Assembly: GCA_965197585.1 (NCBI GenBank)
Contig: OZ240215.1
Coordinates: forward strand, 1,248,001-1,312,000
From: Dehalococcoidia bacterium
GTDB lineage: Bacteria > Chloroflexota > Dehalococcoidia > Plut-88900
Direction of reading: 5' to 3'
Length of the DNA: 64,000 bases
Positions 220 to 40,267 of the stretch are shown one piece after another. How positions within the stretch are numbered: the stretch's first letter is position 1; each line of letters begins with the position of its first letter. The notes beneath the pieces were generated by a model. The model was not told where the DNA came from. It saw only the letters and a list, made by a program, of their open reading frames with translations, and ran no database searches. The translations under genes were made by a program, and so were the position numbers.

Positions 220-1275
220 TGTAAGTGTTAGGTAATTCGTTGACAGATTGGTATAAGAGGCCAACACCAATCTGGAGGCGAGAATGCGAGACAATAGCAA
301 GGACCTCACCCTTGAGCGGAACTACATTCAGAAGTGGCGGTTCCTCATCCATGAGTATCAACTGGTCAAGGCAGGGAAGCATCCCCGTTTCCGCTTCGCC
401 CAGGACTTCTACTCCTTCCACGGCACTAGCCGTCAGACCTTCGCCAAGTACTACAACCGGTTCCTCCTCTCCCCCTCCGACAACGCCTTCCTCCCCCGTA
501 AGCGGGGCCCCGGGTGGAAGTCCCGCCGCACCCTGCCCTACATCGAGCAGAAGGTCATCAACGAGCGCCTTAACGGTACCAACCGTTACGAGATCTATGC
601 CATACTCAAACCCATCCTTAAACACAACACCCCTAAGCCCTCCACCATCTACGCCATCACCAGACGCCACGGTTTCAATAGGCTCACAAAGCCGATGCAG
701 CAGTCGAAGCGCAAGATCATCAAGACCCGGGCAGGAGAGCTGGGCCACCTGGACAGCCACTACCTCAGCCGGGATACCATCGTGGGCACCAAGCACCGCT
801 ACTACCTGGTGGGCCTCATCGACGCCTACACCCGTCTGGCCTGGGCCGAAGTGGTCGGAGACATCAAGAGTCTCTCCGTTATGTTTGCTACTCTGAAGTC
901 CATCAATTTCCTTAACGTGGAGTACGGCATCCAATTCGAGGCCATCCTCACCGACAACGGCCCCGAGATGGCCTCCCCAAGGAACACCGAGGGCCACCCC
1001 ATGGAACGGATGCTCAATGAGCTGGGCATAAAGCACCGCTACACCCGACCCTATAGGCCCCAGACCAACGGGAAGATAGAGCGGTTCTGGAGAACCTTGA
1101 ACGAGGACCTGCTGGAGGGGACAACCTTCGAATCGGTCTCGGAACTGAAGGACGAGCTTCAGCAGTACCTGATCTACTACAATACTCAACGACCCCACCA
1201 GGCAATGGACGGAAAGACCCCTTTGGAGACCCTTAAATCCACCTAATTCTGTCAACGAATTACCTGACATCCACA
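220..1275 (+). mobile_element. IS481-family insertion sequence
   Basis: Ends TGT...ACA. 28-bp imperfect terminal IRs: TGTAAGTGTTAGGTAATTCGTTGACAGA (220-247) vs revcomp of 1248-1275, TGTGGATGTCAGGTAATTCGTTGACAGA. ATTCC is duplicated at 215-219 and 1276-1280. Single rve-type transposase. Confidence 0.9.
284..1246 (+). CDS. IS481-family DDE transposase (integrase core domain)
   Basis: GELGHLD, ILTDNGPE and RPYRPQTNGKIERFWRTL motifs; C-terminal YNTQRPHQA. Confidence 0.92.
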   Translation: MRDNSKDLTLERNYIQKWRFLIHEYQLVKAGKHPRFRFAQDFYSFHGTSRQTFAKYYNRFLLSPSDNAFLPRKRGPGWKSRRTLPYIEQKVINERLNGTNRYEIYAILKPILKHNTPKPSTIYAITRRHGFNRLTKPMQQSKRKIIKTRAGELGHLDSHYLSRDTIVGTKHRYYLVGLIDAYTRLAWAEVVGDIKSLSVMFATLKSINFLNVEYGIQFEAILTDNGPEMASPRNTEGHPMERMLNELGIKHRYTRPYRPQTNGKIERFWRTLNEDLLEGTTFESVSELKDELQQYLIYYNTQRPHQAMDGKTPLETLKST

Positions 1276-1353
1276 ATTCCGATGCCCCGCGAGGAATCTA
1301 GGACTTGTCCTCTCACGCCCTTCCTAGTCTTCCTTCCCCTCCCCCCTGGTAAC

Positions 1354-1394
1354 GACATATCAGCAATGTTGCAAGGCAACATTGCTGATATGTC
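1354..1394. repeat. Perfect 19-bp inverted repeat with 3-nt loop
   Basis: GACATATCAGCAATGTTGC-AAG-GCAACATTGCTGATATGTC. Confidence 0.9.
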
Positions 1395-1473
1395 AATAAA
1401 ACAGGGCGGGTGGGCGGGACTCAATATATCCCTGAGGGTGGGAGGGGCCTCTCCCAAATGTGACACGAACCCA

Positions 1474-1503
1474 TTGACCAAAGCAAAACACTTGTACTAT
1501 ATT
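1474..1503 (+). promoter_or_regulatory. Sigma70-like promoter with overlapping LexA-like box
   Basis: TTGACC-N18-TATATT with AAAC-ACTT-GTAC (1486-1497). The same layout occurs at 38499-38527. Confidence 0.5.
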
Positions 1504-1509
1504 CACCCT

Positions 1510-2170
1510 CGACTGGCCCGTCACTCACCTAAACCCAAGGAGGAACCACAACACAGGGGGAATCCCAGCCCCGGCCCCCGAGGACTCAACGTCCCAGCCC
1601 ATCCCAAAGGGCGACCCACACGCTGCCCCACGGCTCAAGCGAAAGCCGCCATCTCCTCATCCAAAGGCCCCGGCTCACCCTTCCCCCACCAACCAGGCGA
1701 TGGAAGGTCCGTAGACTATACGCGGCAAGCCCTGTCCAGGGGCCCCTGCCGATACAACGCTCCCCTCATCAGGAGCGTATACCTCGCCCTCACAGGCGAA
1801 TACGCTGACCCCGCCAATGGCCGGGCTCAGATACAGGGCCATTGAGCCCATAACCGACTCCCCCGCCGACGCCTTCGGAGAGGCACGCGCACCCCTCGGC
1901 GGCTCCGAGTCCCGCTCCCATCCCTCTGCATGATCGAGCACTTCTGGTGGTCGGGATGCCCCACACCGAGAATCCCTCGGGTCCCCTCCACATCCTCTCA
2001 GAAGCTACGGGCTGTCCTGTGCGGGCAGTCGACGCCCACAGGCACTGGCACAGGCCTAACCGCCTCCCTGCCCAACACTCTCGGACCTTCCATCGCCTTC
2101 CCTCCCCACATCAAACAAAAATCCAGAGTCCCAACTCCCAATCGAAGATCCGCCGCAGGAGGACTGAATA
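1510..2170 (+). ncRNA. Candidate large structured RNA / repeated non-coding cassette, copy 1
   Basis: Conserved blocks shared with 38535-39190; perfect 17-bp stem 1695-1711/2082-2098; no convincing CDS. Confidence 0.55.
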
Positions 2171-2188
2171 ACCGACGGCCTTCCGCTC

Positions 2189-2261: not shown

Positions 2262-3329
2262 CTATCCCGGGAAATGCGGCATCACCTCCCTCGCGAACAA
2301 CCGCATCGAGCTCCGAGTCTTCCGTGCGTCCATCCCCCCAATCTGCATCCACGCCAATATGTGCGTGGCCCCGCGCGCCTGGTCCTCTTCCACCGCACGG
2401 CACACGTCATCGGGCGTCCCGACCATGAACGGTTTGCCCAGGAAATGCACCTTCCCCGACTCTGCAAGGTCGGGTAGGTCCTCCGCACTCGGCAGCGGCA
2501 GCATCCCGAACATCTCCCCCGACATAGAATCAAATATGCCCGCCTCCGTATACTTGGGCAGATAGCCGCGCATCTGCGCCAGGGCATGAGGGGCGTAGTC
2601 CCTCCACGCCTGCTCCTTCGTCTCCCCGACATAGCAGTTCCGTATAACATTCCTGAAATACTGTCCCGGGTCCCTGCCGTACTTTCTCAACGCCCGCTCG
2701 TACGGCCCGAGCATATTCGCATCCCGGGGCCCGGTCAGGTGGCAGCCGTACCTCGCCGCCCGATCTATTGCCGGCGGTATCTCATCCCCCACCGGCCTCT
2801 TCTCCGCCGCAACCCATATAGGCGGGTGAGGCTTCTGCACGGGGCGGGGCAGCATCGTCACGCCATCGAAGTGAAAGTGGCGGCCCTTGAAAGTGAAGTT
2901 CTCTTCCGTGAACAACCCAATAATCGACTGCAAGCCCTCCTCCATCCTCCGTCCCCGCTCACTCCTCGGCACGTCCAGCGTATCGAATTCCGTCTTCTCG
3001 TACCCGACCCCCAGGCCCAGGTCGAACCGCCCATTGGACAGCACGTCCACCATCGCCGCGTTCTCCGCAATGATCAGCGGATGGTGCAAAGGCAAGATGC
3101 TGATGTTCGTCCCGATCCTTATCCGACTGGTCCTTGCGGCCATCGCTGCGCAGAGGATGAAGGGGTTGGGTGGGTACTGGGCGTCGAAGTGGTGCTCGGC
3201 GGTCCACACCTGGTCGAAACCCAGGTCCTCTGCCAGCTCGGTGAGCTCCAATACTTGCTGGTAGTTCTCAGTGTCGGGAGTGCGGAACTCGGCCGGGTTC
3301 TCTGCGAAAAAGAACAGTCCAAACTTCAT
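2262..3329 (-). CDS. LLM-class flavin-dependent oxidoreductase (luciferase-like)
   Basis: MKFGLF start, AEDLGFDQVWTAEHHF, GRFDLGLGVGY, PRPVQKPHPPIW. Confidence 0.92.
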   Translation of the reverse strand: MKFGLFFFAENPAEFRTPDTENYQQVLELTELAEDLGFDQVWTAEHHFDAQYPPNPFILCAAMAARTSRIRIGTNISILPLHHPLIIAENAAMVDVLSNGRFDLGLGVGYEKTEFDTLDVPRSERGRRMEEGLQSIIGLFTEENFTFKGRHFHFDGVTMLPRPVQKPHPPIWVAAEKRPVGDEIPPAIDRAARYGCHLTGPRDANMLGPYERALRKYGRDPGQYFRNVIRNCYVGETKEQAWRDYAPHALAQMRGYLPKYTEAGIFDSMSGEMFGMLPLPSAEDLPDLAESGKVHFLGKPFMVGTPDDVCRAVEEDQARGATHILAWMQIGGMDARKTRSSMRLFAREVMPHFPG

Positions 3330-30365: not shown

Positions 30366-30394
30366 CATTTCCAAATCATAAGCACAAACCACTC

Positions 30395-30555
30395 CCCGTT
30401 CAGGTGCCCATCCAGGGAGAATAGGGAAGGCGGTGAAAAACCGCCGCGGTAGCGCCACTGTAAGCGGGATTCGGAGTCGGAGTCCACTGTCGGTTAACCG
30501 ATGGGAAGGGCCCGGCACCCGAGATCCACCCCGCAAGCCAGGAGACCTGCCCGAA
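30395..30555 (+). ncRNA. Cobalamin (AdoCbl) riboswitch
   Basis: AGGTGC...AATAGGGAA.GCGGTGAAAAACCGC..GCCACTGTAA...CCACTG...TGGGAAGG...AAGCCAGGAGACCTGCC (B12 box), upstream of btuCFD. Confidence 0.95.
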
Positions 30556-30629
30556 CGGGAGGTGACCACTCTCCGCATAAGAGAGGGTCCCTAGCGCGTT
30601 GGGCAAGAGTCCCGGACAGAGCGCAACAA

Positions 30630-34025: not shown

Positions 34026-34100
34026 TGGTGGGCCCGCCTGGATTCGAACCAGGGACCAATCGGTTATGAGCCGACCGCTCTGCCGCTGAGCTACGAGCCC
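34026..34100 (-). tRNA. tRNA with CAT anticodon, most likely tRNA-Ile2 (lysidine)
   Basis: GGGCTCGTAGCTCAGCGGCAGAGCGGTCGGCTCATAACCGATTGGTCCCTGGTTCGAATCCAGGCGGGCCCACCA; cloverleaf with encoded CCA; lacks fMet identity features. Confidence 0.92.
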
Positions 34101-38391: not shown

Positions 38392-38498
38392 ATTGCACCT
38401 CCGGTTGGTGGAAACCGCGCTAATTTAACCCCCACCCCTGAGATAGGTCAACAAACCACTTGCTGATCCCGTTCACATAGAGGGGTGACATATCCCCC

Positions 38499-38527
38499 TT
38501 GACTTCATAAGACACATGTTCTATTAT
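38499..38527 (+). promoter_or_regulatory. Sigma70-like promoter with overlapping LexA-like box
   Basis: TTGACT-N17-TATTAT with AGAC-ACAT-GTTCT (38510-38522). Confidence 0.6.
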
Positions 38528-38534
38528 TGGGCCA

Positions 38535-39190
38535 GTCTAGACCCGACACCCACCTTAAGGAGGTACCAAAAACTAGGGAAGCCCACTCGACCCACCCGAG
38601 GACTCAACGCCCAAGCCCATCCCAACGGGCGGCCCACCCGCCGCCCCGCGGCTCAAGCGAAAGCCGCCATCTCCTCTACCAAGGGCCCCAGCTATCCCTT
38701 CCCTGACCATCAGGCGATGGAAGACGCCCTGGACCGTACTTGAAAGTCTCCTCACGGAGCAACCTTGTCCCATGGAGCGGAACGGGGCAGCCCGTAGCCG
38801 AGGACTTCTCGGCTCTCCGTCCGCTTCCTCAAATAAACTGGGCTGCCGCCGTCTCCCGGCTCCGGGACATCGTCGGCTAACTGGATATCCCGTACTCCTG
38901 CGAGGGGAACTGACCCTGGACTTTCCCCTTCCTGCACTCGCCTACGGCGGACAGCGCAGCCAACCCTGCATCGGAGCCTATGACGGATGACGGACCCGTA
39001 CGTCCGACCATACTTCCAGGTCTAGGCGGCGGCGGAGCCCCGTCCCCACGTTCCCGGGACGCCTCCATGCCCGCATTATCTAAATATAGGGAGCCTAATC
39101 CAGCAAGCGTCTTTCATCGCCTTCCCAAAACCCAACAGACAGAACGGAAACCGAAACTCCACAATCGAAGATCCGCCTCTGGAGGACTAA
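38535..39190 (+). ncRNA. Candidate large structured RNA / repeated non-coding cassette, copy 2
   Basis: Conserved blocks shared with 1510-2170; 16-bp stem 38712-38727/39107-39122 with one G-U pair. Confidence 0.55.
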
Positions 39191-39271
39191 AGAAAAACCC
39201 GGTGTGTCACTAACGTGTCAAACGAATGCAATCGCTTGTACGAACGGCATGGGCAGACTAGAATTGCCTCC

Positions 39272-40267
39272 ATGACTACCCAACCCACTCCCGACCCCGA
39301 ACCCTCCTTCATCGGCCTGCCCTCTTTCCTCAAGCTGCCCTACGTCACCGACCCCGCTGAACTCAAACGCCTCGCCCCCGACGTGGCGATCATGGGCGCA
39401 CCCTTCGATATGGGGACCACCATAAGGCCGGGAACGAGGTTCGGGCCCCGGGCCATTCGCCAGGCCGCAGGATACGTCGGCGGCAGTCCCGTCGAGCCCA
39501 TGTACCACGTCTCCCTCAAGGTCGCCCCCTTCGCCGTCCTCAAGGTCGTGGATTTCGGCGATGCCAACTGCTCTCCCCACTCCCTGGAACTCGCCCACGC
39601 CGCCATCAATCGCAAAGTCTCCGACGCCCTGGCCGCCAACACCCTTCCTATAGTCCTCGGCGGCGACCACTCGATAACCCTTCCAGCCGCTACCGCCGTC
39701 GCCGACGCCTGGGGACGAGGCAAGGTCGGCATCATCCACTTTGACTCCCACGCCGACACCGCCCCAGACAGCTTCGGAGGCAGCCTGATCGCCCACGGCA
39801 GCCCCATGCGCAGGCTCATCGAAAGCGGCTCCGTCCTCCCCAGGAACTTCGTCCAGATCGGCCTCCGGGGCTACTGGCCCCCCGCCGAGGTCTGGCAATG
39901 GATGGAAGAGCAAGGCATGCGCTGGCACCTCATGACCGAGCTCGAAGAGCGTGGTTTCGACGTTGTCATGGACGAGGCCATCAATGAAGCCCTGGACGGC
40001 CCCGAGTTTATCTACCTCTCCGTGGATATCGATGTCCTTGACCCGGGCTTCGCGCCTGGCACCGGCACCCCGGAACCCGGAGGCATGAACCCCAGCCAGC
40101 TTCTCCGCGCCGTCCGGAACATCGTTTCTCGGGTCAACCTAGTCGCCATGGACGTCGTGGAAGTCTCTCCACCCTACGACGGTCCGGGCGCGGTCACCGC
40201 CGAGCACGCCCACCGGGTCGTCGTTGAAGCCATAGCCGCACTAGCCCACAAACGCACATTCTCCTAA
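39272..40267 (+). CDS. speB: Agmatinase / guanidino-amidinohydrolase
   Basis: RPGTRFGPRAIR, GGDHSI, DSHAD, HGSPM, GLRGYWP, DIDVLDPGFAPGTGTPE; exact substrate is uncertain. Confidence 0.85.
   Translation: MTTQPTPDPEPSFIGLPSFLKLPYVTDPAELKRLAPDVAIMGAPFDMGTTIRPGTRFGPRAIRQAAGYVGGSPVEPMYHVSLKVAPFAVLKVVDFGDANCSPHSLELAHAAINRKVSDALAANTLPIVLGGDHSITLPAATAVADAWGRGKVGIIHFDSHADTAPDSFGGSLIAHGSPMRRLIESGSVLPRNFVQIGLRGYWPPAEVWQWMEEQGMRWHLMTELEERGFDVVMDEAINEALDGPEFIYLSVDIDVLDPGFAPGTGTPEPGGMNPSQLLRAVRNIVSRVNLVAMDVVEVSPPYDGPGAVTAEHAHRVVVEAIAALAHKRTFS

What the first reader, a model, noticed from the sequence alone, without database searches (positions are those of the whole stretch)
1462..2170. Protein-free cassette of about 700 bp present twice, with conserved frame and swapped structured interior (copy 1)
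Seen: this region and 38487-39190 share the same ordered blocks. (i) A TTGAC..TAT promoter. (ii) AAGGAGG (1537 / 38557) not followed by any start codon. (iii) A conserved block of about 130 nt that begins CCGAGGACTCAACG and includes 28 identical nt, CGGCTCAAGCGAAAGCCGCCATCTCCTC (1631-1658 / 38649-38676). (iv) A long-range stem. (v) A 3' block CAATCGAAGATCCGCC..GGAGGACT (2139 / 39162). The interiors enclosed by the stem show no alignable sequence by eye, yet have nearly equal length (370 vs 379 nt). No transposase, reverse transcriptase or nuclease is attached, and the flanking genes are unrelated. Inference: an undescribed family of large structured RNA, or a non-autonomous mobile RNA/ssDNA element, in which a constant scaffold carries a variable payload acted on in trans.
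Basis: partly seen in the sequence, partly recalled or inferred. Interest (0 to 1): 0.9.

Follow-up and report, generated by a model that had tools for sequence, protein, structure and literature searches.

The report
Promoter-seeking mobile noncoding RNA cassette
The two look-alike stretches are members of a 57-copy, transposon-like family found in one genus of soil Dehalococcoidia; each copy has its own strong promoter and a ribosome-binding site but no gene behind it, specifies a folded RNA of about 650 bases, and tends to sit just upstream of other genes' promoters.

Summary
The genome holds 57 copies, and all 8 other species of the genus hold dozens each. None was found elsewhere in the class searched, and Rfam has no match.

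Every copy has a sigma-70-type promoter, a perfect AAGGAGG with no start codon, a ~170-nt constant block, a long-range stem and a variable interior of 157-507 nt. No ORF is conserved.

It is a DNA insertion. Clean empty sites exist in sister species. One subtype has imperfect terminal inverted repeats with TG..CA tips and a 5-bp target duplication. Its right end sits 5 nt upstream of a TTGAC (-35-like) hexamer.

The genome has no reverse transcriptase and no Y1 transposase, but 29 rve-type transposase genes. No autonomous partner was identified.

Between orthologous copies the interior is more conserved than the neighbouring genes, while the promoter and constant block are swapped. The parts are combined as a mosaic. 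The interiors fold far better than column-shuffled controls.

Contigs from four metatranscriptome libraries cover the element.

Best reading: a non-autonomous DDE-type element that carries a self-promoted structured RNA, with the orphan SD acting as a 5' stabiliser. What the RNA does is not known.

The parts
1460..1466 (+). GTGACAC motif 7 nt upstream of the -35 hexamer of copy 1 (left end of type C)
   Evidence: Read. The same motif stands upstream of the -35 in types B and C in the listing.
1474..1503 (+). Promoter P1 of copy 1 (TTGACC-18-TATATT)
   Evidence: 10 of 12 to consensus. TTGAC is kept in 56 of 57 copies.
1537..1543 (+). Orphan Shine-Dalgarno AAGGAGG of copy 1, with no start codon behind it
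   Evidence: AAGGAGG is present in 57 of 57 copies, 29-40 nt after the -10 hexamer.
1537..1697 (+). Constant 5' block of copy 1
   Evidence: 57 genome copies. Alignment A2.
1698..1713 (+). 5' arm of the long-range stem, copy 1
1714..2083 (+). Variable structured interior of copy 1 (class B's labels; one of 12 members)
   Evidence: It is 97.3% and 94.9% identical to its orthologues in G002 and G005.
2084..2099 (+). 3' arm of the long-range stem, copy 1
2100..2172 (+). 3' tail of copy 1: a C/A-rich linker and the hairpin TCCGCC-GCA-GGAGGA (2149-2163), ending CTGAATAA
38464..38493 (+). Left terminal inverted repeat (alpha, TGATCCCGTTCACATAGAGGGGTGACAT..) of copy 2
38499..38527 (+). Promoter P1 of copy 2 (TTGACT-17-TATTAT)
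38557..38563 (+). Orphan Shine-Dalgarno AAGGAGG of copy 2
38557..38712 (+). Constant 5' block of copy 2
38713..38728 (+). 5' arm of the long-range stem, copy 2
38729..39106 (+). Variable structured interior of copy 2 (class C; one of 10 members)
   Evidence: cluster 0. It is 96.0% identical to its G002 orthologue.
39107..39121 (+). 3' arm of the long-range stem, copy 2
39122..39200 (+). 3' tail of copy 2, with the hairpin TCCGCC-TCT-GGAGGA (39172-39186)
39201..39230 (+). Right terminal inverted repeat (beta; a variant of ..GTGTCACTAAyCTACCGAACGAGTACA) of copy 2
   Evidence: The G001 empty site shows that everything from about 38458 to 39258 is an insertion.
39236..39274 (+). Host promoter just behind the insertion (TTGTAC-17-TAGAAT), then ATG of an arginase-family gene 7 nt after the -10. 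It is already present in the empty site of G001.

Best explanation
The two cassettes belong to a genus-specific family of non-autonomous, DDE-type (TG..CA, IS3/IS481-like) transposable elements of about 650-800 bp. Each carries a complete transcription unit for a non-coding RNA.

Shown:
- There are 57 copies per genome.
- The promoter and the orphan SD are kept in essentially every copy.
- No ORF is conserved.
- A long-range stem closes a structured interior that varies by class.
- Sister species have empty sites.
- One subtype has inverted-repeat ends and a 5-bp target duplication.
- The right end lies 5 nt upstream of a TTGAC-like hexamer, often a full host promoter.
- The family is a mosaic: three promoter types are combined with at least six interior classes.
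- Between orthologues the 5' part is swapped and the interior is conserved.
- Contigs of RNA libraries cover the element.

Inferred:
- An rve-type transposase encoded elsewhere moves the element in trans and picks the sequence NNNNN|TTGAC, which places insertions at the upstream edge of -35 boxes.
- P1 makes an RNA of about 650 nt. Its perfect 5' SD binds 30S subunits without translation and protects the RNA from RNase J, as STAB-SD does in Bacillus.
- No intrinsic terminator follows, so P1 may read into the co-oriented gene downstream. The cassette would then act as a mobile promoter plus stabilising leader.
- The conserved interior also has a sequence- or structure-dependent role of its own. 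That role is unknown.
For: Copy number and range:
- 57 copies in the genome.
- 8 of 8 other species of the genus have it. It was found in 0 of 29 other families by BLAST. The single weak hit in one of 3 other genera of the same family was not confirmed by the HMM.
- A profile search found it in 5 of 5 sampled genus members. In the 145 other class genomes it gave only one marginal hit, E = 0.004.

Non-coding:
- No frame is open through the element.
- The conserved ATG in the stem is followed by early stops in classes B, C and E.
- Frames shift between copies.

Promoter and SD:
- TTGAC in 56 of 57 copies; TATATT, TATTAT or TACTAT in 52 of 57; AAGGAGG in 57 of 57.
- The consensus scan finds P1 in both window copies.

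Insertion:
- Copy 2 is replaced by about 29 nt in G001 and the flanks line up exactly.
- The copy 1 locus lacks the element in G001 and G008.

Ends and duplication:
- The two ends align at 19 of 26 columns and carry TG..CA tips.
- The 5-bp duplication is perfect in 7 of 14 own copies and 7 of 12 copies from other genomes. A further 4 in each set match at 4 of 5.

Target site:
- Over 54 distinct right flanks, positions +6 to +10 read T42, T41, G45, A30, C35.
- 28 of 54 have both a -35 and a -10 at 4 of 6 or better, against 5 of 5000 random genome sites.
- The -35 and -10 are already present in the G001 empty site.

Transposase families:
- RVT_1: 0 matches. Y1_Tnp: 0 matches. rve: 29 matches.
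- The right end matches the TIR of the 21-copy IS481-like IS at 18 of 28 positions, ungapped from the tip (counted by eye).
- Its local alignment score of 11 was reached by 0 of 500 shuffles.
- TG..CA termini and 5-6-bp duplications are IS3/IS481 hallmarks (PMC10045372, passages read).

Structure:
- The stem is found in 140 of 141 elements, median 14 bp.
- Its inner arms come in compensatory types, GGUCC/GGACC against GACGC/GCGUC.
- Cognate inner arms fold at -12.1 kcal/mol, non-cognate at -8.6.
- Whole-RNA fold z-scores are -5.08 and -3.39.
- In 7 of 7 interior clusters the consensus energy lies 6.8 to 15.3 sd below column-shuffled alignments.

Constraint:
- Orthologous interiors are 97.3, 94.9 and 96.0% identical. 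The adjacent genes are 95.2, 92.2 and 91.6%.

RNA:
- Contigs from 4 metatranscriptome runs of 2 studies lie on 1528-2097 of copy 1.
- Examples are a 391-nt contig on 1663-2052 with 12 differences and a 229-nt contig on 1632-1860.

Stabiliser idea:
- An RNase J gene is present, 565 bits against a cut-off of 400.
- The STAB-SD mechanism is described in PMC4113751 (passages read).

Read-through:
- 0 terminator-like sites in either copy.
- The longest downstream ORF is co-oriented in 43 of 57 copies, by a crude ORF call.
Against: - No autonomous element with the same ends was found in this genome.
- The IS with the most similar TIR uses a different target. By eye, 18-19 of its 20 paired copies sit in a REP-like GTCATTCC|GAGG site.
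- Canonical left ends and duplications are seen only in promoter type A (15 of 57). The right repeat is present in 13 of 15 type A, 7 of 16 type B and 7 of 26 type C copies. Copy 1 itself has neither end.
- Covariation is modest. The 5' block has 0 compensatory pairs of 18. The interiors have 2-13 compensatory pairs against 1.1-8.6 in shuffles, and one cluster is below its control.
- The compensatory stem types represent few independent events.
- The RNA evidence comes from assembled contigs only. They show no strand, ends or level, and DNA can be present in RNA libraries.
- 30S binding, stabilisation and read-through are inferred, not observed.
- Pairing of the SD with the tail is not better than control: -6.2 against -5.35 kcal/mol.
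- The 20 downstream genes examined are functionally mixed, so no common regulon appears.
Confidence: 0.55

Rival explanations
1. It is a host-owned family of functional non-coding RNA genes. They act in trans, for example as ribosome- or protein-binding RNAs whose variable domains give specificity. They spread mainly by duplication and recombination. The transposon ends of one subtype would be secondary: an RNA gene caught between two ends.
For: - Promoter and SD are kept in 56-57 of 57 copies despite 75-93% identity in the block.
- Interiors are more conserved between species than the neighbouring genes and are strongly structured.
- Only 15 of 57 copies carry the canonical left end.
- The parts are freely recombined.
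- Contigs of RNA libraries cover the element.
Against: - Empty sites and 5-bp duplications show real insertion events.
- The fixed 5-nt distance to TTGAC at the right end is a property of insertion, not of an RNA gene.
- The family is confined to one genus among those searched and has dozens of copies, as selfish repeats do.
- No target or partner of the RNA is known.
Confidence: 0.22
2. It is chiefly a cis-acting device: a mobile promoter plus long leader for the gene downstream. The RNA has no function apart from the mRNA it heads.
For: - The right end abuts host promoters: 28 of 54 flanks against 5 of 5000 random sites.
- The downstream ORF is co-oriented in 43 of 57 copies.
- There is no terminator-like site in either window copy.
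- MITEs that supply promoters are known, such as Correia (PMC10969869, passages read).
Against: - Copy 1 and at least 13 other copies face a convergent ORF (the luciferase-like gene at 2262-3329 is on the minus strand).
- Host promoters stay intact behind the element.
- A bare promoter would not need a 400-nt interior that is conserved and structured.
Confidence: 0.15
3. It is a decayed or unusually decoded family of protein genes. The conserved promoter, SD and 'ATGGAAG' would be relics of a coding unit.
For: - A perfect SD is present.
- A conserved ATG lies in the stem arm.
- ORFs of 130-200 aa start there in some copies of classes D, E and F.
- These are long-read assemblies, in which homopolymer errors could break frames.
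Against: - The SD is about 160 nt from that ATG.
- Stops follow the ATG after 4-10 codons in all members of classes C and E and most of B.
- Copies differ by 1-2-nt indels throughout.
- The reading frame differs between copies of one class.
- The 'proteins' are Pro/Arg-rich strings, as expected from C-rich DNA.
- No frame is open from the SD onward.
Confidence: 0.03
4. It is a retroelement or a single-strand (Y1/HUH) element, moved through RNA or ssDNA hairpins.
For: An internal promoter is what an RNA-mediated element would need. There are long hairpins and an A-rich 3' end.
Against: - No RVT_1 and no Y1_Tnp match in the genome, which is 91.9% complete.
- The promoter lies inside the left end, so a transcript could not carry the whole element.
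- TG..CA tips with a 5-bp duplication point to DDE chemistry.
Confidence: 0.03

Closest known systems
Prokaryotic MITEs that carry promoters or give rise to small RNAs (Correia elements of Neisseria; QMITE1 of Coxiella). Source: PMC10969869, passages read.
   Same: Non-autonomous and multi-copy. Intergenic, with terminal inverted repeats and a target duplication. Carries a sigma-70-type promoter, often lies upstream of genes, and is transcribed into non-coding RNA.
   Different: - About 650-800 bp, against 204 bp quoted for Correia.
- Contains a complete transcription unit with an orphan perfect SD, a 170-nt constant block and a 157-507-nt structured interior. The interior comes in at least six classes and is conserved between species.
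- The right end sits at a fixed 5 nt from a -35-like hexamer.
- No parent IS was identified.
IS3/IS481 (rve, DDE) insertion sequences. Source: PMC10045372, passages read. A 21-copy IS481-like IS lies at window 220-1275.
   Same: TG..CA (TGT..ACA) tips and a 5-bp duplication. The right end is identical to the resident IS's TIR at 18 of 28 positions. The genome has 29 rve matches.
   Different: - No transposase lies inside the element.
- The left end is only weakly similar to the IS TIR.
- The resident IS targets a REP-like site, not TTGAC.
- Mobilisation by this IS is not shown.
STAB-SD 5' mRNA stabiliser of Bacillus thuringiensis cry3A. Source: PMC4113751, passages read.
   Same: An SD-like sequence near the 5' end that starts no translation. 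An RNase J gene is present in the genome.
   Different: It heads a non-coding RNA on a mobile element in a Chloroflexota genus. Neither 30S binding nor stabilisation has been tested.
Large structured bacterial RNAs in Rfam (OLE, GOLLD, ROOL, HEARO, group II introns). The names are recalled; the test was the whole Rfam library.
   Same: Similar size range (about 600 nt), strongly folded, no ORF.
   Different: - No Rfam match at gathering score in the window or in 8 other loci covering all classes.
- 57 copies per genome.
- Carries its own transposon ends.
- The constant part is nearly unstructured.

Membership tests
MITE / non-autonomous DDE transposon | Terminal inverted repeats | tested here: met
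   The alpha and beta ends align at 19 of 26 columns and have TG..CA tips. This holds only for the subtype with left end A (15 of 57). The right repeat is present in 27 of 57 copies.
MITE / non-autonomous DDE transposon | Target-site duplication and empty sites | tested here: met
   The 5-bp duplication is perfect in 14 of 26 elements and matches at 4 of 5 in 8 more. G001 has an empty site for copy 2.
MITE / non-autonomous DDE transposon | No transposase gene inside; many copies | tested here: met
   No conserved ORF. 57 copies.
MITE / non-autonomous DDE transposon | A cognate autonomous IS with matching ends | tested here: inconclusive
   The best match is the IS481-like TIR: 18 of 28 positions, with 0 of 500 shuffles reaching its local score. 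A 2-copy 1262-bp rve IS has a similar subterminal motif. No element with the same ends and a transposase was found.
MITE / non-autonomous DDE transposon | Small size (usually well under 500 bp; recalled) | tested here: not met
   The repeated unit of copy 2 is about 770 nt (38464-39230). 'Non-autonomous element' therefore fits better than 'miniature'.
Any described RNA family (Rfam 15) | Match at the family's gathering score | tested here: not met
   None in the element in the window, nor in 8 loci with the other classes. At E up to 10 only chance-level matches appear.
Structured non-coding RNA (generic) | Conserved secondary structure with covariation | tested here: inconclusive
   The long stem has compensatory arm types. 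The interiors have z of -6.8 to -15.3 against shuffled columns, but only 2-13 compensatory pairs against 1.1-8.6 in controls. The 5' block has 0 of 18.
Structured non-coding RNA (generic) | Transcription with defined ends | tested here: inconclusive
   Contigs of 4 RNA libraries lie on the element. Contigs show no strand, ends or level.
STAB-SD-type 5' stabiliser | An SD complementary to the 16S 3' end, near the 5' end, with no start codon at initiation distance | tested here: met
   AAGGAGG is present in 57 of 57 copies, 29-40 nt after the -10. No ATG, GTG or TTG occurs in the next ~20 nt (listing). The 16S tail itself was not read.
STAB-SD-type 5' stabiliser | The host has a 5'-3' exonuclease (RNase J), and the SD lengthens RNA half-life | not testable with these tools
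   An RNase J gene is present. The effect on half-life needs an experiment.
Protein-coding gene family | A conserved open frame | tested here: not met
Retroelement or IS200/IS605-type ssDNA element | An RT or Y1 transposase in the genome | tested here: not met
   0 matches to PF00078 and 0 to PF01797. Genome completeness is 91.9%.

The most novel reading that the evidence does not exclude
This would be a new kind of mobile genetic unit: a transposable RNA gene that homes to the upstream edge of promoter -35 boxes, perhaps by reading TTGAC or sigma-bound DNA. It would express a stable, ribosome-docking RNA of about 650 nt. The exchangeable, selectively conserved structured domains would do work in trans, for example as specificity modules of a riboregulator or RNA scaffold. 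The genus would then maintain a library of more than 50 such RNAs rather than mere junk repeats.
Probability: 0.25. Interest if true: 0.9.

Novelty: new variant of a known kind. Interest (0 to 1): 0.72.

Why it matters
If the reading holds, three things follow.

1. Target choice. A bacterial transposon-like element would select the 5 bp just upstream of -35 hexamers. I found no description of such a target choice, and my searches on this point were few. It would make promoter rewiring by mobile DNA directly testable.

2. Cargo. The cargo is neither a gene nor a bare promoter. It is a large folded RNA headed by a start-less perfect SD, present in dozens of variants. Its variable domain evolves more slowly than the neighbouring genes. 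That is the signature of a function nobody has named.

3. Genome evolution. The family shows how gene conversion can homogenise one part of a repeat while selection keeps another part locus-specific.

It also gives a concrete and abundant candidate RNA for uncultured soil Dehalococcoidia, where almost nothing is known about RNA biology.

Tried and rejected
- Coding readings: three-frame translations, the longest ORFs on both strands and ORFs from the conserved ATG gave no conserved frame.
- Invertible-segment idea (inverted stem arms as recombination sites): no interior is the reverse complement of another. Only 12 short minus-strand hits of 23-30 nt appeared.
- Structure of the 5' block:
  - RNAalifold on a MAFFT alignment and on an HMM alignment found almost nothing.
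  - On 54 diverse sequences it gave 18 pairs and none compensatory.
  - Mutual information was dominated by subfamily linkage. Only one small hairpin (alignment positions 133-143) showed several pair types.
- SD pairing with the sequence just after the 3' arm, as suggested by the single-sequence folds, is not supported. It gave -6.2 against -5.35 kcal/mol for random interior pieces, and a CCUCC-like word occurs in 47 of 112.
- A BLAST hit in another genus of the family (G010, E = 1.5e-4) was not found by the HMM.
- A profile hit in G147 (E = 0.004) was not followed up.
- Partner search:
  - The exact left and right ends occur only at elements, at one IS-disrupted copy, at groESL and at a few weak matches.
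  - An inverted pair at 2.539-2.542 Mb encloses an amine-oxidase-like gene, not a transposase.
  - The ends of five other repeat families do not match.
- Duplications for left-end types B and C could not be located.
- No motif is shared by all interior classes.
- RNA libraries, parts without cover: no contig lay on 1376-1507 (upstream region and promoter) or 2124-2167. Depth on the flanking gene (2256-2500) was 0-5, against hundreds on the 5' block. These are contigs, the block is multi-copy, and divergent paralogues fall below the likeness cut-off. I therefore do not use the gaps as evidence for a start, an end or a level of expression.
- Element orientation (39 plus, 18 minus) against GC skew gave no clean replication-linked pattern.
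- Supplementary files of papers were not opened. None was needed for the claims made.
Full report
WHAT IS THERE

Both stretches were read and aligned.
- A sigma-70-type promoter: 1474-1503 and 38499-38527, each 10 of 12 to consensus.
- AAGGAGG at 1537 and 38557 with no start codon behind it.
- A conserved block of about 170 nt that includes the 28 identical bases.
- A long-range stem: 1698-1713 with 2084-2099, and 38713-38728 with 39107-39121.
- A 3' block with a small hairpin, TCCGCC-nnn-GGAGGA.

The interiors (370 and about 378 nt) do not align with each other. Rfam 15 has no match in either copy at gathering score. A permissive scan gives only chance-level matches.

HOW MANY, AND WHERE

The window lies in a single-contig genome of 3.43 Mb.
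- Iterated nhmmer finds 57 full 5' blocks, 39 on the plus and 18 on the minus strand.
- The 3' block is recognised downstream in 51 of 57. Both stem anchors are found in 57 of 57.
- All 8 other species of the same genus have dozens of copies each. BLAST gave no confirmed match in the 3 other genera of the family or in 29 other families of the class.
- A sequence profile built from 54 diverse copies found the block in 5 of 5 sampled genus members. In 145 other genomes of the class it gave only one marginal hit, E = 0.004.
All 80 loci listed were in records titled 'MAG: Dehalococcoidia bacterium'.

IT DOES NOT CODE FOR PROTEIN

- No frame is open from the SD through the element.
- The longest ORFs differ in strand and frame from copy to copy.
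- The ATG conserved inside the stem arm is followed by a stop after 4-10 codons in classes B, C and E. Where longer ORFs exist, paralogues switch frame.
- Copies differ by many 1-2-nt indels.

ANATOMY ACROSS COPIES

- TTGAC is kept in 56 of 57 copies. A TATATT, TATTAT or TACTAT -10 is kept in 52 of 57. AAGGAGG is kept in 57 of 57, lying 29-40 nt after the -10.
- Upstream sequences fall into three promoter types: A 15, B 16, C 26.
- Interiors fall into six classes (12, 12, 10, 7, 6 and 6 members) plus four singletons. Their lengths are 157-507 nt.
- Promoter types and interior classes are combined almost freely, so the family is a mosaic.
- The tail holds 0-3 copies of the small hairpin. The same hairpin is also found inserted into a loop of the 5' block in several copies.

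IT IS AN INSERTION WITH TRANSPOSON HALLMARKS

At the copy 2 locus, G001 has the two flanking genes with only about 29 nt between the matching flanks, where this genome has about 800 nt. Read side by side, the element sits between a short conserved spacer and the TTGTAC-17-TAGAAT promoter of the arginase-family gene. That promoter is already present in the empty site. G003 carries a different ~200-nt insert at the same spot, and G002 has the element. At the copy 1 locus the element is present in G002, G005 and G003 (with another interior) and absent in G001 and G008.

Type A copies begin TGATCCCGTTCACATAGAGGGGTGACAT. Many copies end GTGTCACTAAyCTACCGAACGAGTACA. The two ends are imperfect inverted repeats (19 of 26 aligned columns) with TG..CA tips. 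The 5 nt before the left tip equal the 5 nt after the right tip in 7 of 14 own copies and in 7 of 12 copies from other genomes. A further 4 in each set match at 4 of 5.

WHERE IT LANDS

Over 54 distinct right flanks, positions +6 to +10 read T (42), T (41), G (45), A (30), C (35). That spells TTGAC. In 28 of 54 flanks a -35 and a correctly spaced -10 are both present at 4 of 6 or better, against 5 of 5000 random genome positions.

The element therefore sits with its right tip 5 nt upstream of a -35-like hexamer, often a real promoter. The fixed spacing argues for target choice at insertion rather than later selection.

The longest downstream ORF is co-oriented in 43 of 57 copies, by a crude ORF call. 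Twenty such genes were checked by Pfam, and 19 had matches. They are mixed: MFS and sulfate transporters, several amidohydrolases, an amidase, amine oxidases, an aminotransferase, Lgt, LeuRS and others.

WHO MOVES IT

The genome has no RVT_1 match and no Y1_Tnp match. It has 29 rve matches. Of these, 21 belong to a 1.06-kb IS481-like IS, one copy of which lies at window 220-1275.

That IS has 28-bp inverted repeats with TG..CA tips and a 5-bp duplication. The element's right end is identical to that TIR at 18 of 28 positions, ungapped from the tip. Its local score was reached by 0 of 500 shuffles. However, 18-19 of the IS's 20 paired copies sit in a REP-like site, GTCATTCC|GAGG, not next to TTGAC (read by eye).

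A 2-copy 1262-bp rve IS has a subterminal motif that resembles both element ends. No element with the same ends and a transposase inside was found. TG..CA termini and 5-6-bp duplications are the signature of IS3/IS481 elements (PMC10045372, passages read). The chemistry is therefore probably DDE, but the partner is open.

IS THE RNA REAL AND STRUCTURED?

- Single-sequence folds of both window copies close the interior with the long stem. They are more stable than dinucleotide shuffles: z = -5.08 and -3.39, 20 shuffles each.
- The stem is found in 140 of 141 elements from nine genomes, 8-18 bp long with a median of 14.
- Its outer 11 bp are constant. The inner part comes in complementary types, chiefly GGUCC/GGACC and GACGC/GCGUC.
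- Cognate inner arms pair better than non-cognate ones, -12.1 against -8.6 kcal/mol. 18% of non-cognate pairs reach the cognate median.
- For seven interior clusters (9-22 distinct sequences, 77-91% identity) the RNAalifold consensus energy lies 6.8 to 15.3 sd below column-shuffled alignments. Compensatory pairs are only modestly above control: 2-13 against 1.1-8.6, and one cluster is below.
- The 5' block shows no covariation: 18 predicted pairs, 0 compensatory. It is conserved as primary sequence.
- Contigs from four metatranscriptome libraries of two studies lie on 1528-2097 of copy 1. The longest are a 391-nt and a 229-nt contig. Contigs show presence in RNA libraries only, not strand, ends or level.

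WHAT IS CONSTRAINED

Between orthologous copies in G000, G002 and G005 the interior is 97.3, 94.9 and 96.0% identical. The adjacent protein genes are 95.2, 92.2 and 91.6%. The promoter plus 5' block is only 69-88%.

The 'constant' part is therefore exchanged among paralogues, presumably by gene conversion through the shared block. The 'variable' part is locus-specific and at least as constrained as coding sequence.

HOW IT MOST LIKELY WORKS

Shown: a promoter-bearing, ORF-less, multi-copy insertion with DDE-like ends. It sits at the upstream edge of -35-like hexamers and has a conserved, folded interior.

Inferred:
- An rve-type transposase supplied in trans inserts it at NNNNN|TTGAC.
- P1 produces an RNA of about 650 nt.
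- Its 5' AAGGAGG, a perfect SD with nothing to translate, docks a 30S subunit and shields the RNA from RNase J. The gene for RNase J is present. This is how STAB-SD works in B. thuringiensis cry3A (PMC4113751, passages read).
- No terminator-like site follows, so transcription may run into the next gene. The cassette would then be a mobile promoter plus stabilising leader.

The conserved interior suggests a further role that I cannot name. MITEs that supply promoters or small RNAs are known (PMC10969869, passages read). This family differs in its size, its complete RNA unit, its class-variable conserved domain and its -35-proximal position.

VERDICT

It is wrong on the mode of mobility and on which part is conserved.

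I file it as a new variant of a known kind, a promoter-bearing non-autonomous transposon. There is a real chance that the RNA is a new functional class. Searches of the paper library for this lineage together with repeats or MITEs found nothing relevant.

Noticed in passing
G000:C1:3404961-3405100 (outside the window; loci L179, L180): A solo 30-nt left end (TGAT..ATCA) flanked by CCCC(C) stands directly upstream of the groES-groEL promoter (CTTGCG-17-TAAAAT, followed by an inverted repeat I recall as the CIRCE operator). It is present in G000, G002 and G005, and probably G003 (full-length BLAST match only). It is absent in G001, G004, G006, G007 and G008. A piece of the element has therefore become part of a core heat-shock promoter region in one clade.
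   Followed up: yes
window 220-1275: An IS481/IS3-like IS: a 320-aa rve transposase, 28-bp inverted repeats starting TGTAAG, and a 5-bp duplication ATTCC. It has about 21 copies in the genome. By eye, 18-19 of 20 paired copies are inserted in the same REP-like word, GTCATTCC|GAGG. This is a site-specific, repeat-hunting IS.
   Followed up: partly
window 1283-1310 and 2195-2225: A small REP-like module (..GTCATTCCGAGGCnCCGCGAGGAATC..) flanks copy 1 on both sides and occurs about 30 times in the genome. It is the target of the IS above. It was also covered by RNA-library contigs.
   Followed up: partly
window 1276-1455: Another repeated module (about 8-13 copies) contains a perfect 42-nt palindrome at about 1345-1388. 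In sister genomes it is often contiguous with type C elements but also stands alone.
   Followed up: no
G008 locus L164, and about 100-270 nt upstream of type B elements in G000 (e.g. 936982, 851893, 2482855): A module of about 170 nt with two strong hairpins precedes type B copies and also occurs alone. The intergenic regions of this genus are built from several interchangeable repeat modules.
   Followed up: no
G003 locus L169 (orthologue of window ~38457-39259): An unrelated insert of about 200 nt, flanked by ACAAG repeats, occupies almost the same promoter-proximal spot where G000 has copy 2. The spot seems to be an insertion hotspot.
   Followed up: no
G000:C1:659345-660648: A further rve-type IS (438-aa ORF) is inserted inside element e05, between its left end and the -35 hexamer, with CCC on both sides.
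   Followed up: no
whole genome G000: The plus strand has a strong excess of C over G (1,056,597 against 975,422). Cumulative GC skew peaks near 1.06 Mb and bottoms near 2.65 Mb. Skew reaches -0.15 between 1.5 and 2.0 Mb. This is unusually asymmetric for a closed-looking contig.
   Followed up: no
window 30385-30568 (+) and 34029-34100 (-): A cobalamin riboswitch (105.8 bits) and a tRNA gene (69 bits) from the Rfam scan. Both are ordinary.
   Followed up: no
window 38422-38451 (-): A promoter-like site (TTGACC-18-TAAATT) for the divergent upstream gene lies right at the left edge of copy 2. The element is therefore wedged between two divergent -35 boxes, which in G001 are only 12 nt apart.
   Followed up: partly
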